Origin: a virus
Length of the DNA: 64,000 nt
IMG/VR virus record: IMGVR_UViG_3300033149_002311
Span: 25,265 to 89,264 of that record
Direction: 5' to 3' (one strand)
Under the pieces are notes generated by a model. That model made no database searches. It saw only the letters and a list, made by a program, of their open reading frames with translations, and was not told the DNA's origin. The first letter of the stretch is position 1. Every line of letters starts with the position of its first letter. Positions 17,453 to 24,692 of the stretch are shown here, piece after piece. The translations under genes and the position numbers were made by a program.

Positions 17453-17706
17453 AAACGATCCATGAATACCCACTATCCCCTGGATTTAATTCCGTCATAT
17501 TACCAGCTGGTGCAAAAATATTAACAGTGCATGAACAACACGGCGGCATTAACGTGTGGGCTGAGATTGATACAGACAGGGAATTAACAAGTATAATTTT
17601 CAATGTCTATGGTACCGGGCATGAAATCAATGTTGAAAATTCAAAATATATCGGTACCATATTTATGGATAATGGTTACAAAGTGTGGCATGTCTACAAA
17701 GGTTAA
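17449..17706 (+). CDS. conserved phage hypothetical protein
   Basis: LP.GAKIL.V..Q......WA...GTGH...YIGT...VWHV pattern. Confidence 0.65.
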   Translation: MKTIHEYPLSPGFNSVILPAGAKILTVHEQHGGINVWAEIDTDRELTSIIFNVYGTGHEINVENSKYIGTIFMDNGYKVWHVYKG

Positions 17707-17722
17707 CAAAGGAGAAAGACAC

Positions 17723-18046
17723 ATGAACTGGGAAAAAGTAGAAGATAATATAACTAGCGGCCCAATGGGTCTTTTTAAATGGGTAGCAATACTTGCGGTA
17801 TTGATGGGTATTTTATTTGGTGGAATTAGTTTTATTATGAAACCGGCAAGCATGGCCATTGATCGTGTAGTGATGAAGCATAGCTTTCAATATCGTGAAG
17901 GGATGGAACAGCGAGGCGCAATTCTTGAGGCAAGCATTATAGAGATTGATATTGCCTTGCAAAGTAATCCAGAAAATCGCCAAGATTTAATCAATCAAAA
18001 GCGTATTTTAACCGCTCAGTTACGAGCAATCACTATAAATAAATAA
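17723..18046 (+). CDS. membrane-anchored protein
   Basis: AGGAG SD; N-terminal TM helix. Confidence 0.6.
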   Translation: MNWEKVEDNITSGPMGLFKWVAILAVLMGILFGGISFIMKPASMAIDRVVMKHSFQYREGMEQRGAILEASIIEIDIALQSNPENRQDLINQKRILTAQLRAITINK

Positions 18047-18056
18047 AGGGGAAGTT

Positions 18057-18611
18057 ATGAAAAAGTTAATTATCTTTATGGCTATTATATTGGCTCTTGT
18101 TGGGTGTAATGCTAATGATTCTCAAAGCACGAAGATTGCTCAATCTGTAGAGCGGCAACAGTCACAATATGCTACTGGGCAGCCAGTGCCAGCATATGAC
18201 TGGAGTTTAGAGCGTGACTTGGTTATCCAGTTATATAATATTCGCAATATGAAAGCACTAACACATTCTGTTTGGCGTAGCGATCGCGGCTTAGTCGAGG
18301 GCGATTGCGCAAGCATCGGGTTTGGCATCCCTTATGACACCAGCTTAACAAATCCACTTGTTGCTACCGACGAAGATCAAAATGGATATAGCAACAACGC
18401 ACTAACATCAATCGAACAGCCGGAGCCTAATGGCATATTTGCCAGTAAAAATACCTCAGCAACATGGGTAATGTGCGCCGGTGACACTGGAATGATTGAA
18501 CCGGTTTATATCGAAACGAAGGTAACTGTTTATCCATATTCGGTAAAAGTTGATTATGCTAATAACCGAGTCACTAAATCTGGAAAAGCCAGTGTTACTC
18601 TAAAAAGATAA
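18057..18611 (+). CDS. lipoprotein
   Basis: Signal peptide with LVGC lipobox. Confidence 0.75.
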   Translation: MKKLIIFMAIILALVGCNANDSQSTKIAQSVERQQSQYATGQPVPAYDWSLERDLVIQLYNIRNMKALTHSVWRSDRGLVEGDCASIGFGIPYDTSLTNPLVATDEDQNGYSNNALTSIEQPEPNGIFASKNTSATWVMCAGDTGMIEPVYIETKVTVYPYSVKVDYANNRVTKSGKASVTLKR

Positions 18612-18616
18612 TCCAT

Positions 18617-18673
18617 ATGAAAAAATTTATAAACGGAACTAGGAGTGATCGGCCCGTAGGAGGTGTAATATGA
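18617..18673 (+). CDS. 18-aa leader ORF coupled to the helicase start
   Basis: MKKFINGTRSDRPVGGVI*; its TGA overlaps the helicase ATG (ATGA). Confidence 0.4.
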   Translation: MKKFINGTRSDRPVGGVI

Positions 18674-18695
18674 AAGCTTACGCCATCTACGGGCC
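18651..18695 (+). promoter_or_regulatory. mRNA hairpin sequestering the helicase SD
   Basis: GGCCCGUAGG-A-GGUGUAA pairs with UUACGCC-A-UCUACGGGCC; GGAGG in the stem, AUG in the loop. Confidence 0.7.
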
Positions 18696-20085
18696 ACCGT
18701 GACCGGGTACCGGGAAAACTACTGAATTAATTAGAATTCAGAGGGATATCATAAAACAGGGTCGAAACCCGAAGCATATAGCTTTTTTATCACATACCAA
18801 AACGGCTGCTGCAGAAATAGTTGGTAGAGCCCCAGAAGGTGAGAGGGCGGGTCATGCATCTACAATACATAGTATGGTATATAGATTATGTGGTATCAGC
18901 AATGGCCAAGTAATTGACATCGATAAATTAAAGGAATTCAGTAAGTTGGTTCACGTTCCTATTGTAGGCCGAGGACCAGAGGTAGAAGAGGTTGAAATTG
19001 GTGACGAATTTTTAGCAATTTATGATCTTTCTAGGGCTAAAATCGAGAGTCCGGAAGTAACATATGCAAATTCCCATAGGCCGGGGTCATTCGCTTTATT
19101 TACTAAATTCCACACAGCATATGAGGAATGGAAAAAGACGTACGGATATGTCGATTTTACCGACATGCTTCAAAAGTATATAGATAAGCCGATCAATCAC
19201 AATATTGCTATTTTCATAATTGATGAGGCTCAAGACTTGTCACCCCTGCAATGGAAAGTTATCGATGAAATGGCCAAATGGGCCTATCATATTATTATTT
19301 CAGGTGATGATGACCAAGCGGTATTCTATTGGGGTGGTGCCGATCCACAAGGGATGGTTAAATTTGAAAAGAAATATAAGGCCAAGCGGAAAATACTGGC
19401 GCAATCATGGCGCATACCGTTAGTGGTCCATAATTTGGCAAATAAAATAATTAATCCCATTAAAAATCGTGTTGAAAAAGAATACAAACCACGTGATGAA
19501 GAGGGTAAATTATTTAGACATTCTACATTTATGACGGTTCCGTTGGAAGGTAACATTCTAATTTTATTTAGAAATCACTCCATTAGAAAGGATATGGAAG
19601 AAATCATTATCGACCACGCACTCCCATATAAAGTTAGATCAGGCATGCCGGGGTTGCTTCAAAATCGATATGCCAATGCTATACGAAAATGGAAAAAATT
19701 GATGGATGAAGGGTCATTAACTGATAAAGATGCCTCAGCAATAAGGAGGTGTGCCTACCCACACACTGCTCAATATTTAGCTGATAAAAATTTTACTAAA
19801 TTATCAACGATGACATGGCAAAAAGCACTAAAGATACCGCATTGGATGTTAGACTATTACAATAAGATTGATTTTGATATAGAGCCGAAAATTGAATTAT
19901 CAAGTATACACGGTGCTAAGGGCCATGAATCAGACGTGGTGGTGGTGAATACAGGTATGACACAACGAACCGTGGAATCAGCAGTAAAAGACCCGGATTC
20001 TGAAGCTAGGGTCTGGTATGTAGCGGTGACTAGAGCTAAACACGAATTACATATTGTAGAAGGGGAGAGTGGGTATTTATTATGA
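18670..20085 (+). CDS. UvrD/Rep-like SF1 helicase with an in-frame TGA (18700-18702) inside Walker A
   Basis: GGAGG SD, MKAYAIYGPP*PGTGKTT in frame with track ORF 18874..20085 (STIHS, IDEAQD, GDDDQA, QSWR, SSIHGAKGHE, YVAVTRAK). Confidence 0.85.
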
Positions 20086-22859: not shown

Positions 22860-24692
22860 ATGAATTTTCCTAATTTAAGTAATTATCCTTGTATCTCTCT
22901 GGACACAGAGACAACTGGATTAAAATTTTGGGTAGATAAAGTGTTCGGTATATCAATATCAACACCTGATGGTAAAGATTATTATTGGGATATAAGACAG
23001 ACACCGAAAGTTATACCGTGGTTAAATAATGAATTAAAAAGAGTAAAATTAATAATATTCGCTAATGCTAAATTTGATATGCACATGCTCCGGGAAATTG
23101 GGGTCCATGTGCCGGAAGATAAAGTTGATGATGTTATAATCAGAGCAGCTTTAATTGATGAGCATTTATTGGCATATAATCTGGATTATCTCGGTAAAAA
23201 GTATCTTGGTGTGGGTAAAACCGAAGAAATATGGGATGATCTAGCTAGGATGTTTGGTGGTAGGGCCACCCGGAACGTGCAAGCAGAAAATTTGCAACGA
23301 GCACCGGTAGAATTAGTAAGTAAATATGCCAAACAAGACACGCGTGTGACATTAGATCTATGGGTATACCAACAACCGATCATTGAAGAACAAGAATTAG
23401 TAAAAGTTCATAAATTAGAGTGTGATTTAATACCGGCACTCCTTGATATGGAATACCGAGGAGTTAGAATTAACGTTGATAAAGTTGAGCAGACAATCGA
23501 TGAAGTTACTATATTGATTGATGACCAACAGAAAGATTTAAACAAGACGGCTGGGTTTATGGTTAATCCCAACCCCAGTGGTAGCATTCACAAATTATTT
23601 GAACCAAAACAAGATAGTGAGGGCACTTGGATAGCTAATGATGGAACTAGGTTAGTAAAAACCGGAGCAGGGAAAGCGTCAATTAATGCCGACGCGTTGA
23701 GAGCAATGAAACACCCCGCCGCCTCTAAGATTTTATCGTTACGTAAATTGCTTAAGACCCGAGACACATTCCTTAAGGGCCATATTTTAGGCCATCATCA
23801 CAATGGCATCATTCATTGTAATTACAATCAGACAAAAAGCGATAATGACCTAGGAACAGGAACAGGCCGTTTAAGTGTAAATAGCCCAGCTCTCCAGCAA
23901 ATTCATAAAAGAGACAAAGCAATTGCCAGTATTGTCCGGGCTCTGTTTTTGCCGGATGAAGGACAGCAATGGAATTGTCGCGATTGGTCACAGATGGATT
24001 TTCGGGTTGCCGGTCATTATGTTAACGCCGAAGCATTGAATATAGCGTATGCTAATGATCCCGATGCCGATTTTCACCAAATGATTGCTGATATGACTGG
24101 TATACCCAGATCACCAGAGGGAGGTAATCCTCTAAACGCCAAGCAAATAAACTTAGGATTACTATTTGGCATGGGCAGCGGTAAACTAGCTGCCGAGATG
24201 GGACTACCATATACCCTTGCATCATTTGAAAAAAATGGTAAAAAGCACACCTATTTAAAGCCCGGACCCGAAGCCATGGAAATATTCGATAATTATCACG
24301 GTAAATTCCCGGAATTTAAGACTATGTTAGGTAAGGCATCTAGTATAGCAAAATCTCGCGGTTATGTAAAAACTATCATGGGCAGGCGTTTAAGATTTCC
24401 CGGTGGAAATTTTACACATAAAGCGGGAGGTGTTATATTTCAAGGATCAGCTGCAGATGCTTTAAAATTGAAAATAATTGAGATATATAATTTTTTAAAA
24501 GGAACTGAGGGTAGATTGCTGCTAAACGTGCATGATGAGATGGACTGTAGTGTACCTAAAGATGATGTAAAATTAGATGCGGGGATTAAAGAGATAATGG
24601 AGACGTTTGATTCTAATTCCCTGATACACTTCAGGGTCCCGATTCGATCTGACAGCGGAATCGGTCCCGACTGGTGGCAAGCTAGCAAATGA
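22860..24692 (+). CDS. dpoZ: family A DNA polymerase, DpoZ-like
   Basis: Exo motifs DTETTG, NAKFD, YA.QD; TGRLS...P.LQQI; motif A DWSQMDFR; motif B AKQINLGLLFGMG; motif C VHDE; no 5'-3' exonuclease; next to purZ. The DpoZ label is inferred from context. Confidence 0.8.
   Translation: MNFPNLSNYPCISLDTETTGLKFWVDKVFGISISTPDGKDYYWDIRQTPKVIPWLNNELKRVKLIIFANAKFDMHMLREIGVHVPEDKVDDVIIRAALIDEHLLAYNLDYLGKKYLGVGKTEEIWDDLARMFGGRATRNVQAENLQRAPVELVSKYAKQDTRVTLDLWVYQQPIIEEQELVKVHKLECDLIPALLDMEYRGVRINVDKVEQTIDEVTILIDDQQKDLNKTAGFMVNPNPSGSIHKLFEPKQDSEGTWIANDGTRLVKTGAGKASINADALRAMKHPAASKILSLRKLLKTRDTFLKGHILGHHHNGIIHCNYNQTKSDNDLGTGTGRLSVNSPALQQIHKRDKAIASIVRALFLPDEGQQWNCRDWSQMDFRVAGHYVNAEALNIAYANDPDADFHQMIADMTGIPRSPEGGNPLNAKQINLGLLFGMGSGKLAAEMGLPYTLASFEKNGKKHTYLKPGPEAMEIFDNYHGKFPEFKTMLGKASSIAKSRGYVKTIMGRRLRFPGGNFTHKAGGVIFQGSAADALKLKIIEIYNFLKGTEGRLLLNVHDEMDCSVPKDDVKLDAGIKEIMETFDSNSLIHFRVPIRSDSGIGPDWWQASK

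What the first reader, a model, noticed from the sequence alone, without database searches (positions are those of the whole stretch)
18670..18720. Candidate programmed ribosomal stop-hop inside the Walker A motif of the SF1 helicase
Seen: strong SD, then ATG AAA GCT TAC GCC ATC TAC GGG CCA CCG TGA CCG GGT ACC GGG AAA ACT, in frame with the rest of an intact UvrD-like helicase. The stop is flanked by identical CCG codons. Take-off from the first CCG and landing on the second gives exactly G-P-P-G-T-G-K-T, the canonical SF1 Walker A. Simple readthrough would insert two residues and break the motif, and starting at 18874 would lose the motif. TGA ends many other genes here, so this is not global recoding. 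Established: matched take-off/landing codons around a stop are the core signal of translational bypassing (T4 gene 60, stop-hop constructs). Inference: helicase level is gated by a minimal 3-nt bypass.
Basis: partly seen in the sequence, partly recalled or inferred. Interest (0 to 1): 0.85.

Follow-up and report, generated by a model that had tools for sequence, protein, structure and literature searches.

The report
Ribosome-hop insert in phage helicase
Six extra bases, a stop codon plus a proline codon, sit inside the ATP-binding loop of this phage's helicase gene, and about 45 other phages carry the same kind of insert with a matching RNA hairpin and often a selfish nuclease gene, so ribosomes most likely hop over it, a tiny natural counterpart of the phage T4 gene 60 bypass.

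Summary
The frame reads GGG CCA CCG TGA CCG GGT ACC GGG AAA ACT and runs into an intact 460-codon UvrD-like helicase.

It is not a one-off. Pattern scans found 40 distinct phage helicases with GPP-stop-(CCN or CTN)-GxGKT, plus 5 distinct loci with 5-, 7-, 8- or 13-base inserts at the same spot.
- The first inserted codon is always a stop, never a sense codon.
- The second is only CCN or CTN.
- The take-off codon is never CCC.
- All 39 testable insert-bearing loci, the window included, carry an upstream stem-loop whose 3' arm abuts the take-off codon. Only 3 of 194 insert-less relatives reach the same score.
- An HNH endonuclease gene lies directly upstream in 19 of 39 insert-bearing loci and in 0 of 184 insert-less ones.
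- One pair of phages, 96-97% identical on both flanks, differs by exactly HNH gene plus insert.

Best reading (about 0.7): this is a homing-endonuclease cassette like T4 mobA/gene 60, and its insert is skipped by a tRNA-Pro stop-hop. The window keeps the hairpin and the insert but has no HNH gene. No protein or read data exist.

His "gating of helicase level" is not. This scan has reported similar inserts on other DNA.

The parts
17714..18669 (+). 956-nt insertion relative to the closest relative L004. It sits exactly where HNH genes sit in other insert-bearing phages. It holds an ORF for a membrane protein (17603-18046), a lipoprotein ORF (18057-18611), and a right end with the 5' hairpin arm and the SD.
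   Evidence: blastn of the window against L004 shows homology ending at 17713 and resuming at the ATG at 18670. Pfam finds nothing and PHROGs gives phrog_24725. There is no HNH homologue.
18651..18660 (+). 5' arm of the outer stem (GGCCCGTAGG). It overlaps the Shine-Dalgarno AGGAGG at 18658-18663.
   Evidence: Stem search and RNAfold of 18645-18712, which gives MFE -31.9 kcal/mol and z = -3.58.
18662..18685 (+). Inner 7-bp stem (18662-18668 pairing with 18679-18685). Its apical loop contains the helicase start codon ATG at 18670-18672.
   Evidence: RNAfold structure.
18686..18695 (+). 3' arm of the outer stem (TCTACGGGCC). It covers the Ile-Tyr-Gly-Pro1 codons and ends one base before the take-off codon.
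   Evidence: The equivalent stem is present in 39 of 39 insert-bearing loci tested, against 3 of 194 insert-less loci at score 8 or more.
18697..18699 (+). Proposed take-off codon CCG, the second Pro of GPP.
   Evidence: In the family the take-off codon is CCG 26, CCA 8, CCT 6 and CCC 0 of 40, against CCC in 50 of 194 insert-less relatives.
18700..18705 (+). The 6-nt insert: in-frame stop TGA (18700-18702) plus the proposed landing codon CCG (18703-18705). Decoding would resume at GGT 18706-18708.
   Evidence: The insert is absent from L004, PMBT28 and vB_AbaSI_2.
18670..20085 (+). UvrD/Rep-like SF1 helicase gene, intact apart from the insert. The Walker A coding region is 18691-18720.
   Evidence: Against L004, dN/dS is 0.03. 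The window's terminal branch is 0.015, against 0.035 for L004.

Best explanation
The 6-nt insert (TGA CCG) is the window's copy of a recurrent, mobile 'bypass cassette' of phage UvrD-like helicase genes.

In its full form the cassette has three parts:
1. a free-standing HNH homing-endonuclease gene placed directly upstream of the helicase start;
2. a short upstream sequence that pairs with the helicase codons just 5' of the second Pro codon of the Walker A, forming a stem-loop;
3. a tiny insert, beginning with a stop codon, right after that Pro codon.

Proposed origin (inferred by analogy with T4 mobA/gene 60): the endonuclease cuts the conserved Walker-A DNA of phages that lack the cassette. 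Repair then copies the cassette in, and the insert splits the target site so that the carrier is immune.

Proposed decoding (inferred): the ribosome stalls with peptidyl-tRNA-Pro on the take-off codon and a stop codon in the A site. This Pro-Pro-stop-C context is poor for termination. The tRNA unpairs, the mRNA slips 6 nt, the tRNA re-pairs to the CCN or CUN landing codon, and decoding resumes at the Gly codon. The product has the normal GPPGxGKT loop. Re-folding of the hairpin as its 3' arm leaves the ribosome probably helps to pull the mRNA forward.

The window has lost, or never had, the HNH gene. It keeps the hairpin and the insert, so its helicase is most likely still made by hopping.
For: RECURRENCE
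- A scan that left both inserted codons free found 28 loci. 20 were helicase N-termini, and all 20 had a stop as the first inserted codon.
- Across the first codon was allowed to be TGG and never was one in a helicase.
- After merging identical loci there are 40 distinct 6-nt cases: TAA 16, TGA 13, TAG 11.

LANDING CODON
- The second inserted codon was left free. It is only CCN (15) or CTN (25) in helicases.
- These are the codons that can pair with an NGG anticodon by Watson-Crick pairing or by G.U at the middle base.
- Its third base equals that of the take-off codon in 25 of 40, against 14.5 expected (permutation p about 1e-4).

TAKE-OFF CODON
- CCC occurs in 0 of 40, against 50 of 194 in insert-less relatives (p = 3e-5).
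- CCC before a stop is a known +1 shift-prone site (PMC3082878, passages read).

INSERTS NOT A MULTIPLE OF THREE, same spot, same family, intact ORFs of 463-547 aa, with the stem in 4 of the 5 (L321 scores only 6)
- CCG[TAA T CCT]GGT (7 nt)
- CCA[TGA TG CCG]GGC (8 nt)
- one further 7-nt, one 5-nt and one 13-nt form
- Read-through cannot rescue any of these.

FUNCTION KEPT
- Every complete insert-bearing locus has an open helicase frame of 460-547 aa or longer. L037 is the one exception.
- dN/dS between insert-bearing pairs is 0.05-0.25, at dS 0.8-2.5.
- HNH divergence tracks helicase divergence. For L303/L307, HNH is 83% identical with dS 1.06 and the helicase 87% with dS 0.85. The cassette has therefore been resident for a long time.

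HAIRPIN
- The best-stem score has a median of 11.5 in 39 insert-bearing loci and 4.5 in 194 insert-less loci. 36 of 39 against 3 of 194 reach 8 or more (Mann-Whitney p = 3e-23).
- The arms covary with the helicase codons.
- RNAalifold gives an 11-bp consensus stem, with compensatory changes in 4 of 13 pairs.
- The window's stem has MFE -31.9 kcal/mol and z = -3.58.

HNH
- The HNH_3 domain is found at E = 1.6e-15 to 3.7e-10.
- Counts are insert+HNH+ 19, insert+HNH- 20, insert-HNH+ 0 and insert-HNH- 184 (Fisher p = 4e-17).

A CLOSELY RELATED PAIR
- L284 and L135 are 96-97% identical on both flanks.
- They differ by a 549-nt HNH segment plus the 6-nt insert.
- Mismatches are denser next to the cassette: 13 in 160 nt against about 32 in 1400 nt.

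PRECEDENT
- MobA plus the gene 60 bypass form one mobile element, and the bypass protects against MobA nicking (bioRxiv 10.1101/2022.08.31.505936, sections 3 and 12 read).
- Pairing of exiting mRNA has been proposed as the forward driver of bypassing (bioRxiv 10.1101/2024.12.09.627546, passages read).
Against: - There is no protein, ribosome-profiling, RNA or read evidence for any member. All are metagenome assemblies, and no cultured phage with the insert was found.
- The window has no HNH gene, and its closest relative L004 lacks both insert and hairpin. The window's copy could be a recent, untested acquisition.
- Most family members land on CTN, which mismatches the anticodon at the middle base.
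- Three rare variants have no good landing codon: L324 (GCA), L321 (TCG) and L313 (none seen).
- By my recollection of Weiss et al. 1987, which I did not read here, synthetic stop-hops in E. coli were inefficient.
- The hairpin buries the SD and the start codon, so it could serve initiation control instead.
- The Fisher and permutation tests ignore shared ancestry.
- Insert-bearing loci were found with patterns that demanded GGN CCN CCN, so other contexts are unsampled.
- L037 has a second in-frame stop.
- Endonuclease targeting of the Walker-A DNA is pure analogy.
Confidence: 0.7

Rival explanations
1. Stop-codon read-through. A near-cognate or suppressor tRNA reads the stop, and the helicase works with two extra residues in its P-loop (GPP-x-P/L-GxGKT).
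For: The window's insert is in frame, as are the 40 distinct 6-nt cases. By recall, UGA followed by C is a leaky context in E. coli.
Against: - A sense codon would serve read-through better. None occurs in 40 distinct cases, although TGG is one transition away from TAG or TGA.
- All three stops are used, including TAA in 16.
- The same spot carries 5-, 7-, 8- and 13-nt inserts that read-through cannot rescue.
- No suppressor tRNA is present in the 89-kb record or in the 17 loci tested.
- Read-through would not explain third-base covariation, CCC avoidance or the 5' hairpin.
- The first Gly of GxxxxGK[ST] would be displaced.
Confidence: 0.07
2. Dead or dying gene. The insert, whether delivered by an endonuclease cassette or arising by mutation, simply inactivates the helicase. 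The phage tolerates this, and the open frame reflects a recent event, at least in the window.
For: The window's nearest relative lacks the insert. The insert state is a minority: 40 of 234 distinct loci, and those 40 were enriched by the search. The cassette is mobile, so some acquisitions may be recent. L037 has a further stop.
Against: - No other lesion occurs in any other complete insert-bearing locus.
- dN/dS is 0.05-0.25 between insert-bearing pairs whose HNH genes have diverged just as far, so the insert predates the divergence.
- The insert itself and the hairpin show constraint.
- The window's terminal branch is shorter than that of its intact relative.
Confidence: 0.13
3. Regulatory stop-hop. 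The hop exists to set or gate helicase dosage and is unrelated to mobile DNA.
For: The SD and start codon are sequestered in the hairpin, and the hop is probably sub-stoichiometric. Both would lower helicase output. The window has no endonuclease gene.
Against: The trait is tightly linked to an HNH gene (0 of 184 insert-less loci have one). It is patchy even among close relatives. It is gained or lost together with the HNH gene in the L284/L135 pair, which is 96-97% identical on both flanks. Most of the family does without it.
Confidence: 0.08
4. Sequencing or assembly artefact in this metagenome-assembled record.
For: The record is an uncultured viral contig, and reads could not be examined.
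Against: The same architecture occurs in about 45 distinct, divergent assemblies from many samples. It comes with a co-occurring hairpin, which the window also has.
Confidence: 0.02

Closest known systems
Phage T4 gene 60 translational bypass with the MobA HNH homing-endonuclease element (Manning and Atkins, bioRxiv 10.1101/2022.08.31.505936, sections 3 and 12 read; Bonocora et al. 2011 and Huang et al. 1988 known to me only as cited there)
   Same: A non-translatable insert lies in a conserved part of an essential replication gene. A stop codon follows the take-off codon directly, and the landing codon precedes the resume codon. A 5' stem-loop is present. The insert is linked to an HNH endonuclease gene directly upstream. 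The endonuclease is lost in some lineages while the insert stays. Distribution is patchy and horizontal.
   Different: The gene is a UvrD-like helicase, not topoisomerase. The gap is 3 nt (2-10 nt in variants), not 47 nt between codons. The hopping tRNA is Pro, not Gly. The nascent chain is only 9-22 residues long, so no long nascent-peptide signal is possible. The host gene is not split. There is no take-off stem-loop holding the stop. No sequence homology was seen, and the HNH genes were not compared with MobA.
Synthetic 'stop-hops' in E. coli, where 9 nt specify one amino acid (Weiss et al. 1987, as described in PMC5009743, passages read)
   Same: [quoted passage not shown] This is exactly the window's CCG TGA CCG.
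   Different: Those were engineered and weak. The review states that no natural in-frame stop-hop is known. Here there is a natural family with extra signals: a Pro-Pro context, C after the stop, and a 5' hairpin.
Mitochondrial 'byp' bypass elements of Magnusiomyces capitatus (as described in PMC5009743 and in bioRxiv 10.1101/2022.08.31.505936)
   Same: Short mobile inserts in coding sequence are skipped at translation. Take-off and landing codons are not always perfectly matched.
   Different: Those inserts are 27-55 nt, lie in a mitochondrial genome with relaxed decoding, have an unused sense codon in the A site, and have no endonuclease.
Shifty stops, +1 frameshifting at CCC_UGA or CCC_UAA (PMC3082878, passages read)
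   Same: A Pro-tRNA sits in the P site with a slow stop codon in the A site as the trigger.
   Different: Here CCC is strictly avoided, and the tRNA must re-pair to a non-overlapping codon.

Membership tests
UvrD/Rep-like SF1 helicase | UvrD-helicase / AAA_19 N-terminal domain and UvrD_C C-terminal domain above the Pfam cut-offs | tested here: met
   PF00580 scores 77.4 bits, PF13245 52.2 bits and PF13361 40.3 bits.
UvrD/Rep-like SF1 helicase | Contiguous Walker A GxxxxGK[ST] encoded in the DNA | tested here: not met
   The motif is interrupted by TGA CCG at 18700-18705. It is contiguous only if those 6 nt are skipped.
Stop-hop (translational bypass with a 3-nt gap) | Take-off codon, then a stop codon directly 3', then a landing codon cognate for the same tRNA, with the frame restored | tested here: met
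   The window reads CCG TGA CCG GGT. In the family 15 of 40 land on CCN and 25 of 40 on CTN.
Stop-hop (translational bypass with a 3-nt gap) | Protein product that lacks the residues of the gap and landing codon | not testable with these tools
   No proteomic or reporter data exist. No sequencing run was listed.
T4 gene 60 / MobA bypass cassette | HNH homing-endonuclease gene adjacent to the bypassed insert | tested here: not met
   The window and its whole 89-kb record have no HNH_3 match. The feature is met in 19 of 39 distinct insert-bearing relatives.
T4 gene 60 / MobA bypass cassette | About 50-nt coding gap with a take-off stem-loop, and a long nascent-peptide signal | tested here: not met
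   The gap is 3 nt and the nascent chain is 10 residues. The only structure is a 5' stem-loop that ends before the take-off codon.
T4 gene 60 / MobA bypass cassette | Insertion in the topoisomerase II large-subunit gene, with homology to the cassette | tested here: not met
   The host gene is a UvrD-like helicase. No comparison with the T4 sequence was run.
T4 gene 60 / MobA bypass cassette | The insert protects the carrier from cleavage by its own endonuclease | not testable with these tools
   This is inferred only from co-occurrence and from the L284/L135 pair, 96-97% identical on both flanks.
Programmed stop-codon read-through | The stop can be replaced by a sense codon in relatives, and the insert length is a multiple of three | tested here: not met
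   0 of 40 distinct cases have a sense codon. 5-, 7-, 8- and 13-nt inserts occur at the same spot.

The most novel reading that the evidence does not exclude
This is a natural family of minimal translational bypass elements, the first natural in-frame stop-hops. Gaps of 2-10 nt inside the Walker A of phage helicases are skipped by peptidyl-tRNA-Pro. The hop is stimulated by a Pro-Pro-stop-C stall and by a hairpin that re-forms at the mRNA exit and pulls the message forward. The elements are spread between distantly related phages by an HNH homing endonuclease, which uses the insert as self-immunity. This would be a second, independent and far simpler evolution of the T4 gene 60 solution.
Probability: 0.6. 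Interest if true: 0.9.

Novelty: new variant of a known kind. Interest (0 to 1): 0.85.

Why it matters
Programmed translational bypassing is known in bacteria and phages essentially from one system, T4 gene 60 and its homologues. The 2022 preprint I read calls that cassette "unique" and says no similar bypassing has been reported in other phages. The 2016 review I read says no natural in-frame stop-hop is known.

This family offers dozens of natural sequence variants of a bypass with only a few parts: a 10-20-codon leader, one hairpin, a Pro-Pro-stop and a landing codon. That makes several questions directly testable in simple reporters:
- what drives forward mRNA slippage;
- how much anticodon pairing a landing site needs (CCN against CUN against UCG);
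- how homing endonucleases invade conserved coding DNA without killing the gene.

It also matters for annotation. Gene callers will truncate these helicases or call them pseudogenes.

Tried and rejected
- Near and distant DNA searches of the helicase region against GenBank phages found nothing.
- Raw reads and RNA: the look-up of sequencing runs listed no run and no RNA holder. Neither the 6 nt nor expression could be checked, and read laying was not used.
- Suppressor tRNA or recoding: no tRNA was found in the window, in the whole 89-kb record or in 17 related loci, apart from one tRNA-Lys in L008. TGA is a common terminator here. Rejected.
- Homing endonuclease in the window: the two ORFs of the 956-nt upstream insertion have no Pfam hit and look like a membrane protein and a lipoprotein. 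The record has no HNH_3 match. My first idea, that the window's own upstream ORF is the endonuclease, was therefore wrong. The endonuclease turned up only in relatives.
- Cultured example: the nearest GenBank phage to the largest insert-bearing clade, Phage DSL-LC04 at 64.6% identity, has an uninterrupted helicase. HNH tblastn hits in GenBank phages were partial only.
- The metagenome-contig scan gave only four 34%-identical relatives, which I did not use further.
- Literature: searches found no paper describing a short stop insert in a phage helicase Walker A or a natural stop-hop. Supplements are closed and subscription journals are not covered.
- An internal restart after the stop was rejected. 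No ATG, GTG or TTG lies between the stop and the GKT codons, and landing codons such as CTA, CTT and CCN are not starts.
- A small pairing of the take-off CC with the resume GG, predicted by RNAalifold, never varies, so it says nothing.
Full report
THE OBSERVATION

The window comes from an 89,264-base uncultured viral record that CheckV rates 79% complete. At 18658-18663 there is an AGGAGG, and the ATG is at 18670, one base earlier than the finding implies. The codons then read AAA GCT TAC GCC ATC TAC GGG CCA CCG TGA CCG GGT ACC GGG AAA ACT.

With TGA shown as X, the frame is open to 20085. The product carries the UvrD-helicase, AAA_19 and UvrD_C domains. TGA terminates 43 of 111 long ORFs in the record, and no tRNA gene is present.

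Three homologues encode an uninterrupted ...YGPPGTGK[ST]... at the same distance from their start: Salmonella phage PMBT28, Acinetobacter phage vB_AbaSI_2 and the relative L004 at 94% amino-acid identity. The window therefore has a genuine 6-nt insertion, and the ten codons before it are the conserved helicase N-terminus.

IT IS RECURRENT

- The pattern GGN CCN CCN TRR CCN GGN ACN GGN AAR AC found 7 viral contigs. All 7 had a stop and none had TGG.
- With both inserted codons left free, 28 contigs matched. 20 were helicase N-termini, and every one had a stop as the first inserted codon, followed by CCN (7) or CTN (13). The other 8 were unrelated frames.
- A scan of one genome per prokaryote species gave 4 more, all in metagenome-assembled genomes, and 4 chance hits.
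- Freeing the middle Walker residue added 25 more, with GSGKT, GAGKT and GCGKT, and 2 chance hits.
- After merging identical loci there are 40 distinct 6-nt cases among 234 distinct helicase N-termini: TAA 16, TGA 13, TAG 11.
- The helicases are only 23-60% identical across groups.
- All complete loci have an open frame of 460-547 codons, or 824 and 962 in two fused forms, after the insert. L037 is the exception, with a second in-frame stop.

THE INSERT IS A MINORITY, PATCHY STATE

- Of the 80 closest relatives of the window's helicase, 77 showed their N-terminus, and 1 of those 77 had the insert.
- Of 80 relatives of the largest insert-bearing clade, 76 showed their N-terminus, and 3 of those 76 had it. 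An 81%-identical relative lacked it.
- On a tree of 97 helicases the 19 insert-bearing rows need at least 6 changes of state, against 17.6 for shuffled labels. Two clades, of 6 and 8 rows, are wholly insert-bearing. The insert-less rows on that tree were sampled by similarity to the window, and later showed insert-less members inside the larger clade.

THE LINK TO A HOMING ENDONUCLEASE

- The ORF directly upstream of the helicase is an HNH_3 endonuclease in L020, L022, L032 and L011, with E-values from 1.6e-15 to 3.7e-10.
- tblastn with these four proteins against all loci found homologues only in insert-bearing loci. They are always on the same strand and end 10-56 nt before the Gly codon.
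- Distinct loci with at least 450 nt of upstream flank divide as follows: insert with HNH 19, insert without HNH 20, HNH without insert 0, neither 184 (Fisher p = 4e-17, ignoring shared ancestry).
- Between clades the HNH proteins are more alike (45-55%) than their helicases (25-40%), which suggests transfer between lineages. Within the main clade the two diverge in step.
- L284 and L135 are 96-97% identical on both flanks. They differ by a 549-nt segment holding the HNH gene, in place of 245 nt, and by the 6-nt insert. Mismatches are denser in the 160 nt next to the cassette, 13 against about 32 in the following 1400 nt, as expected of a co-conversion tract.
- Two pairs are both insert-bearing but only one member has HNH: L299/L304 and L297/L291. 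This shows the endonuclease being lost while the insert stays.

EVIDENCE THAT THE INSERT IS SKIPPED AT TRANSLATION

1. No sense codon ever replaces the stop, although TGG is one transition away.
2. The second codon is only CCN or CTN, the codons able to pair with the NGG anticodon of tRNA-Pro. Its third base matches the take-off codon in 25 of 40, against 14.5 expected.
3. The take-off codon is never CCC (0 of 40, against 50 of 194 in insert-less relatives, p = 3e-5), while the preceding Pro codon is CCC in 17 of 40. CCC followed by a stop is a known +1 shift-prone site (PMC3082878, passages read), so the avoidance points to selection on decoding at this site.
4. The last scan found inserts at the same spot that are not multiples of three, in the same family, with intact ORFs. 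The stem is present in 4 of the 5, and L321 scores only 6. They are CCG[TAA T CCT]GGT, CCA[TGA TG CCG]GGC, CCG[TGA C TCG]GGG, CCA[TAG CA]GGG and a 13-nt form. Read-through cannot rescue these. The first two have clean CCN landing codons.
5. dN/dS between insert-bearing helicases is 0.05-0.25 at dS 0.8-2.5. Their HNH genes are equally diverged, so the helicases stayed under purifying selection while carrying the stop.

A CONSERVED HAIRPIN

- I searched the upstream 70 nt for the longest stem whose 3' arm ends between the Gly codon and the take-off codon. 39 insert-bearing loci gave a median score of 11.5, all at 7 or more and 36 at 8 or more. 194 insert-less loci gave a median of 4.5, with 3 at 8 or more (Mann-Whitney p = 3e-23).
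- The 5' arm changes with the helicase codons. Its pairings are GGGGCCGAAG with CTTCGGCCCC, GGGCCAT with ATGGCCC, GGGTCCTAGAA with TTCTAGGACCC, and GGCCCCAGG with CCTGGGGCC. In the window GGCCCGTAGG (18651-18660) pairs with TCTACGGGCC (18686-18695).
- RNAalifold on 18 sequences gives an 11-bp consensus stem, with compensatory changes in 4 of 13 pairs.
- The window's structure has a 10-bp outer stem and a 7-bp inner stem. The AUG lies in the apical loop and the SD in the stem. MFE is -31.9 kcal/mol and z is -3.58.
- L004, which has no insert, lacks the structure.

WHAT THE WINDOW HAS

Homology with L004 stops at 17713 and resumes exactly at the ATG at 18670. The 956 nt in between hold a membrane-protein ORF, a lipoprotein ORF and, at the right end, the 5' arm and the SD. 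No HNH gene is present.

The window therefore carries the hairpin and the insert at the position where other phages carry the full cassette. It is either a relic after loss or replacement of the endonuclease, or a cassette with other cargo.

Its helicase shows no decay. dN/dS against L004 is 0.03, and its terminal branch is 0.015 against 0.035 for L004.

HOW IT MOST LIKELY WORKS

Shown: the anatomy, the co-occurrence of the parts and the signatures of selection.

Inferred:
- The HNH enzyme targets uninterrupted Walker-A DNA, and the insert gives immunity. This rests on analogy with MobA (bioRxiv 10.1101/2022.08.31.505936, sections 3 and 12).
- Peptidyl-tRNA-Pro hops 6 nt over the stop.
- The hairpin, melted while its 3' arm lies in the ribosome, re-forms and helps to pull the mRNA forward. 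This is the model proposed for gene 60 (bioRxiv 10.1101/2024.12.09.627546, passages read).
- Pro-Pro before a stop, and C after it, slow termination. This is from recall. PMC3082878 mentions slow stops, "shifty stops" and tmRNA tagging after a C-terminal Pro.

COMPARISON WITH WHAT IS KNOWN

The logic is that of T4 mobA/gene 60. The gene, the tRNA, the gap length and the signals differ, and membership of that family fails on its defining features.

The window's CCG TGA CCG is formally the "stop-hop" of synthetic constructs. The 2016 review says that no natural in-frame stop-hop is known (PMC5009743, passages read). The 2022 preprint says the gene 60 cassette "remains unique".

My four literature searches found no description of this helicase cassette.

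This scan has already reported similar Walker-A inserts beside HNH genes in other phage helicases, and one in a polymerase. Another reader noted the hairpin in this same window. One note warns that part of a like claim on other DNA fell when it was checked, without saying which part.

VERDICT

- The hop is supported comparatively but is untested at the bench (confidence about 0.7).
- Novelty: a new variant of a known kind.
- Interest: 0.85.

Noticed in passing
window 14947-15102 (+), next to 15238-16815: The Rfam tRNA model matches a 156-nt stretch at 44.7 bits, but ARAGORN calls no tRNA there. It lies just upstream of a Ro60/TROVE gene. Window 15039-15126 is 95% identical to L004 while the flanking coding DNA is about 78% identical. 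This is probably a Y-RNA with a tRNA-like module.
   Followed up: partly
window 17714-18669: A 956-nt insertion relative to L004 encodes a membrane protein and a 184-aa lipoprotein (lipobox LVGC, phrog_24725). It could be a superinfection-exclusion or spanin-like pair, and it occupies the slot where relatives carry the HNH gene.
   Followed up: partly
L002 (Acinetobacter phage vB_AbaSI_2) and L001 (Salmonella phage PMBT28): In the nearest cultured relatives the helicase lies next to a polymerase, annotated DpoZ in vB_AbaSI_2 and DNA polymerase I in PMBT28. By recall, DpoZ marks 2-aminoadenine (Z) genomes. In the window the helicase is followed by thymidylate synthase, and PolA lies at 22860-24692.
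   Followed up: no
L037 7633-7998: This insert-bearing helicase, in a Bryobacteraceae metagenome-assembled genome, has a second in-frame stop 73 codons after the Walker A. Homology continues in frame beyond it. It could be a pseudogene, an error or another recoding site.
   Followed up: partly
L313 3868-3905; L324 and L321: L313 has a 13-nt insert (TGA CGGAAAGACA) with no CCN or CYN landing codon. L324 has a 5-nt insert landing on GCA. L321 has a 7-nt insert landing on TCG. All three have intact ORFs, and L313 and L324 also have the stem (L321 scores only 6). How they would be decoded is unexplained.
   Followed up: no
L008 and L023: These insert-bearing helicases are fused to long C-terminal extensions, giving 962 and 824 aa.
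   Followed up: no
L035 12197-12850 (-); L023 450-1052: The ORF upstream of the insert-bearing helicase in L035 has a weak LAGLIDADG_3 match (E = 7.7e-4, below the cut-off), so it may be a different endonuclease in the same slot. In L023 the upstream ORF is a Mom-family protein.
   Followed up: no
L037, L038, L040, L042: Near-identical helicase N-termini (..AEETREFRIFGPP..) occur in metagenome-assembled genomes assigned to four phyla: Acidobacteriota, Chloroflexota, Elusimicrobiota and Planctomycetota. These are probably phage contigs mis-binned into genomes.
   Followed up: no
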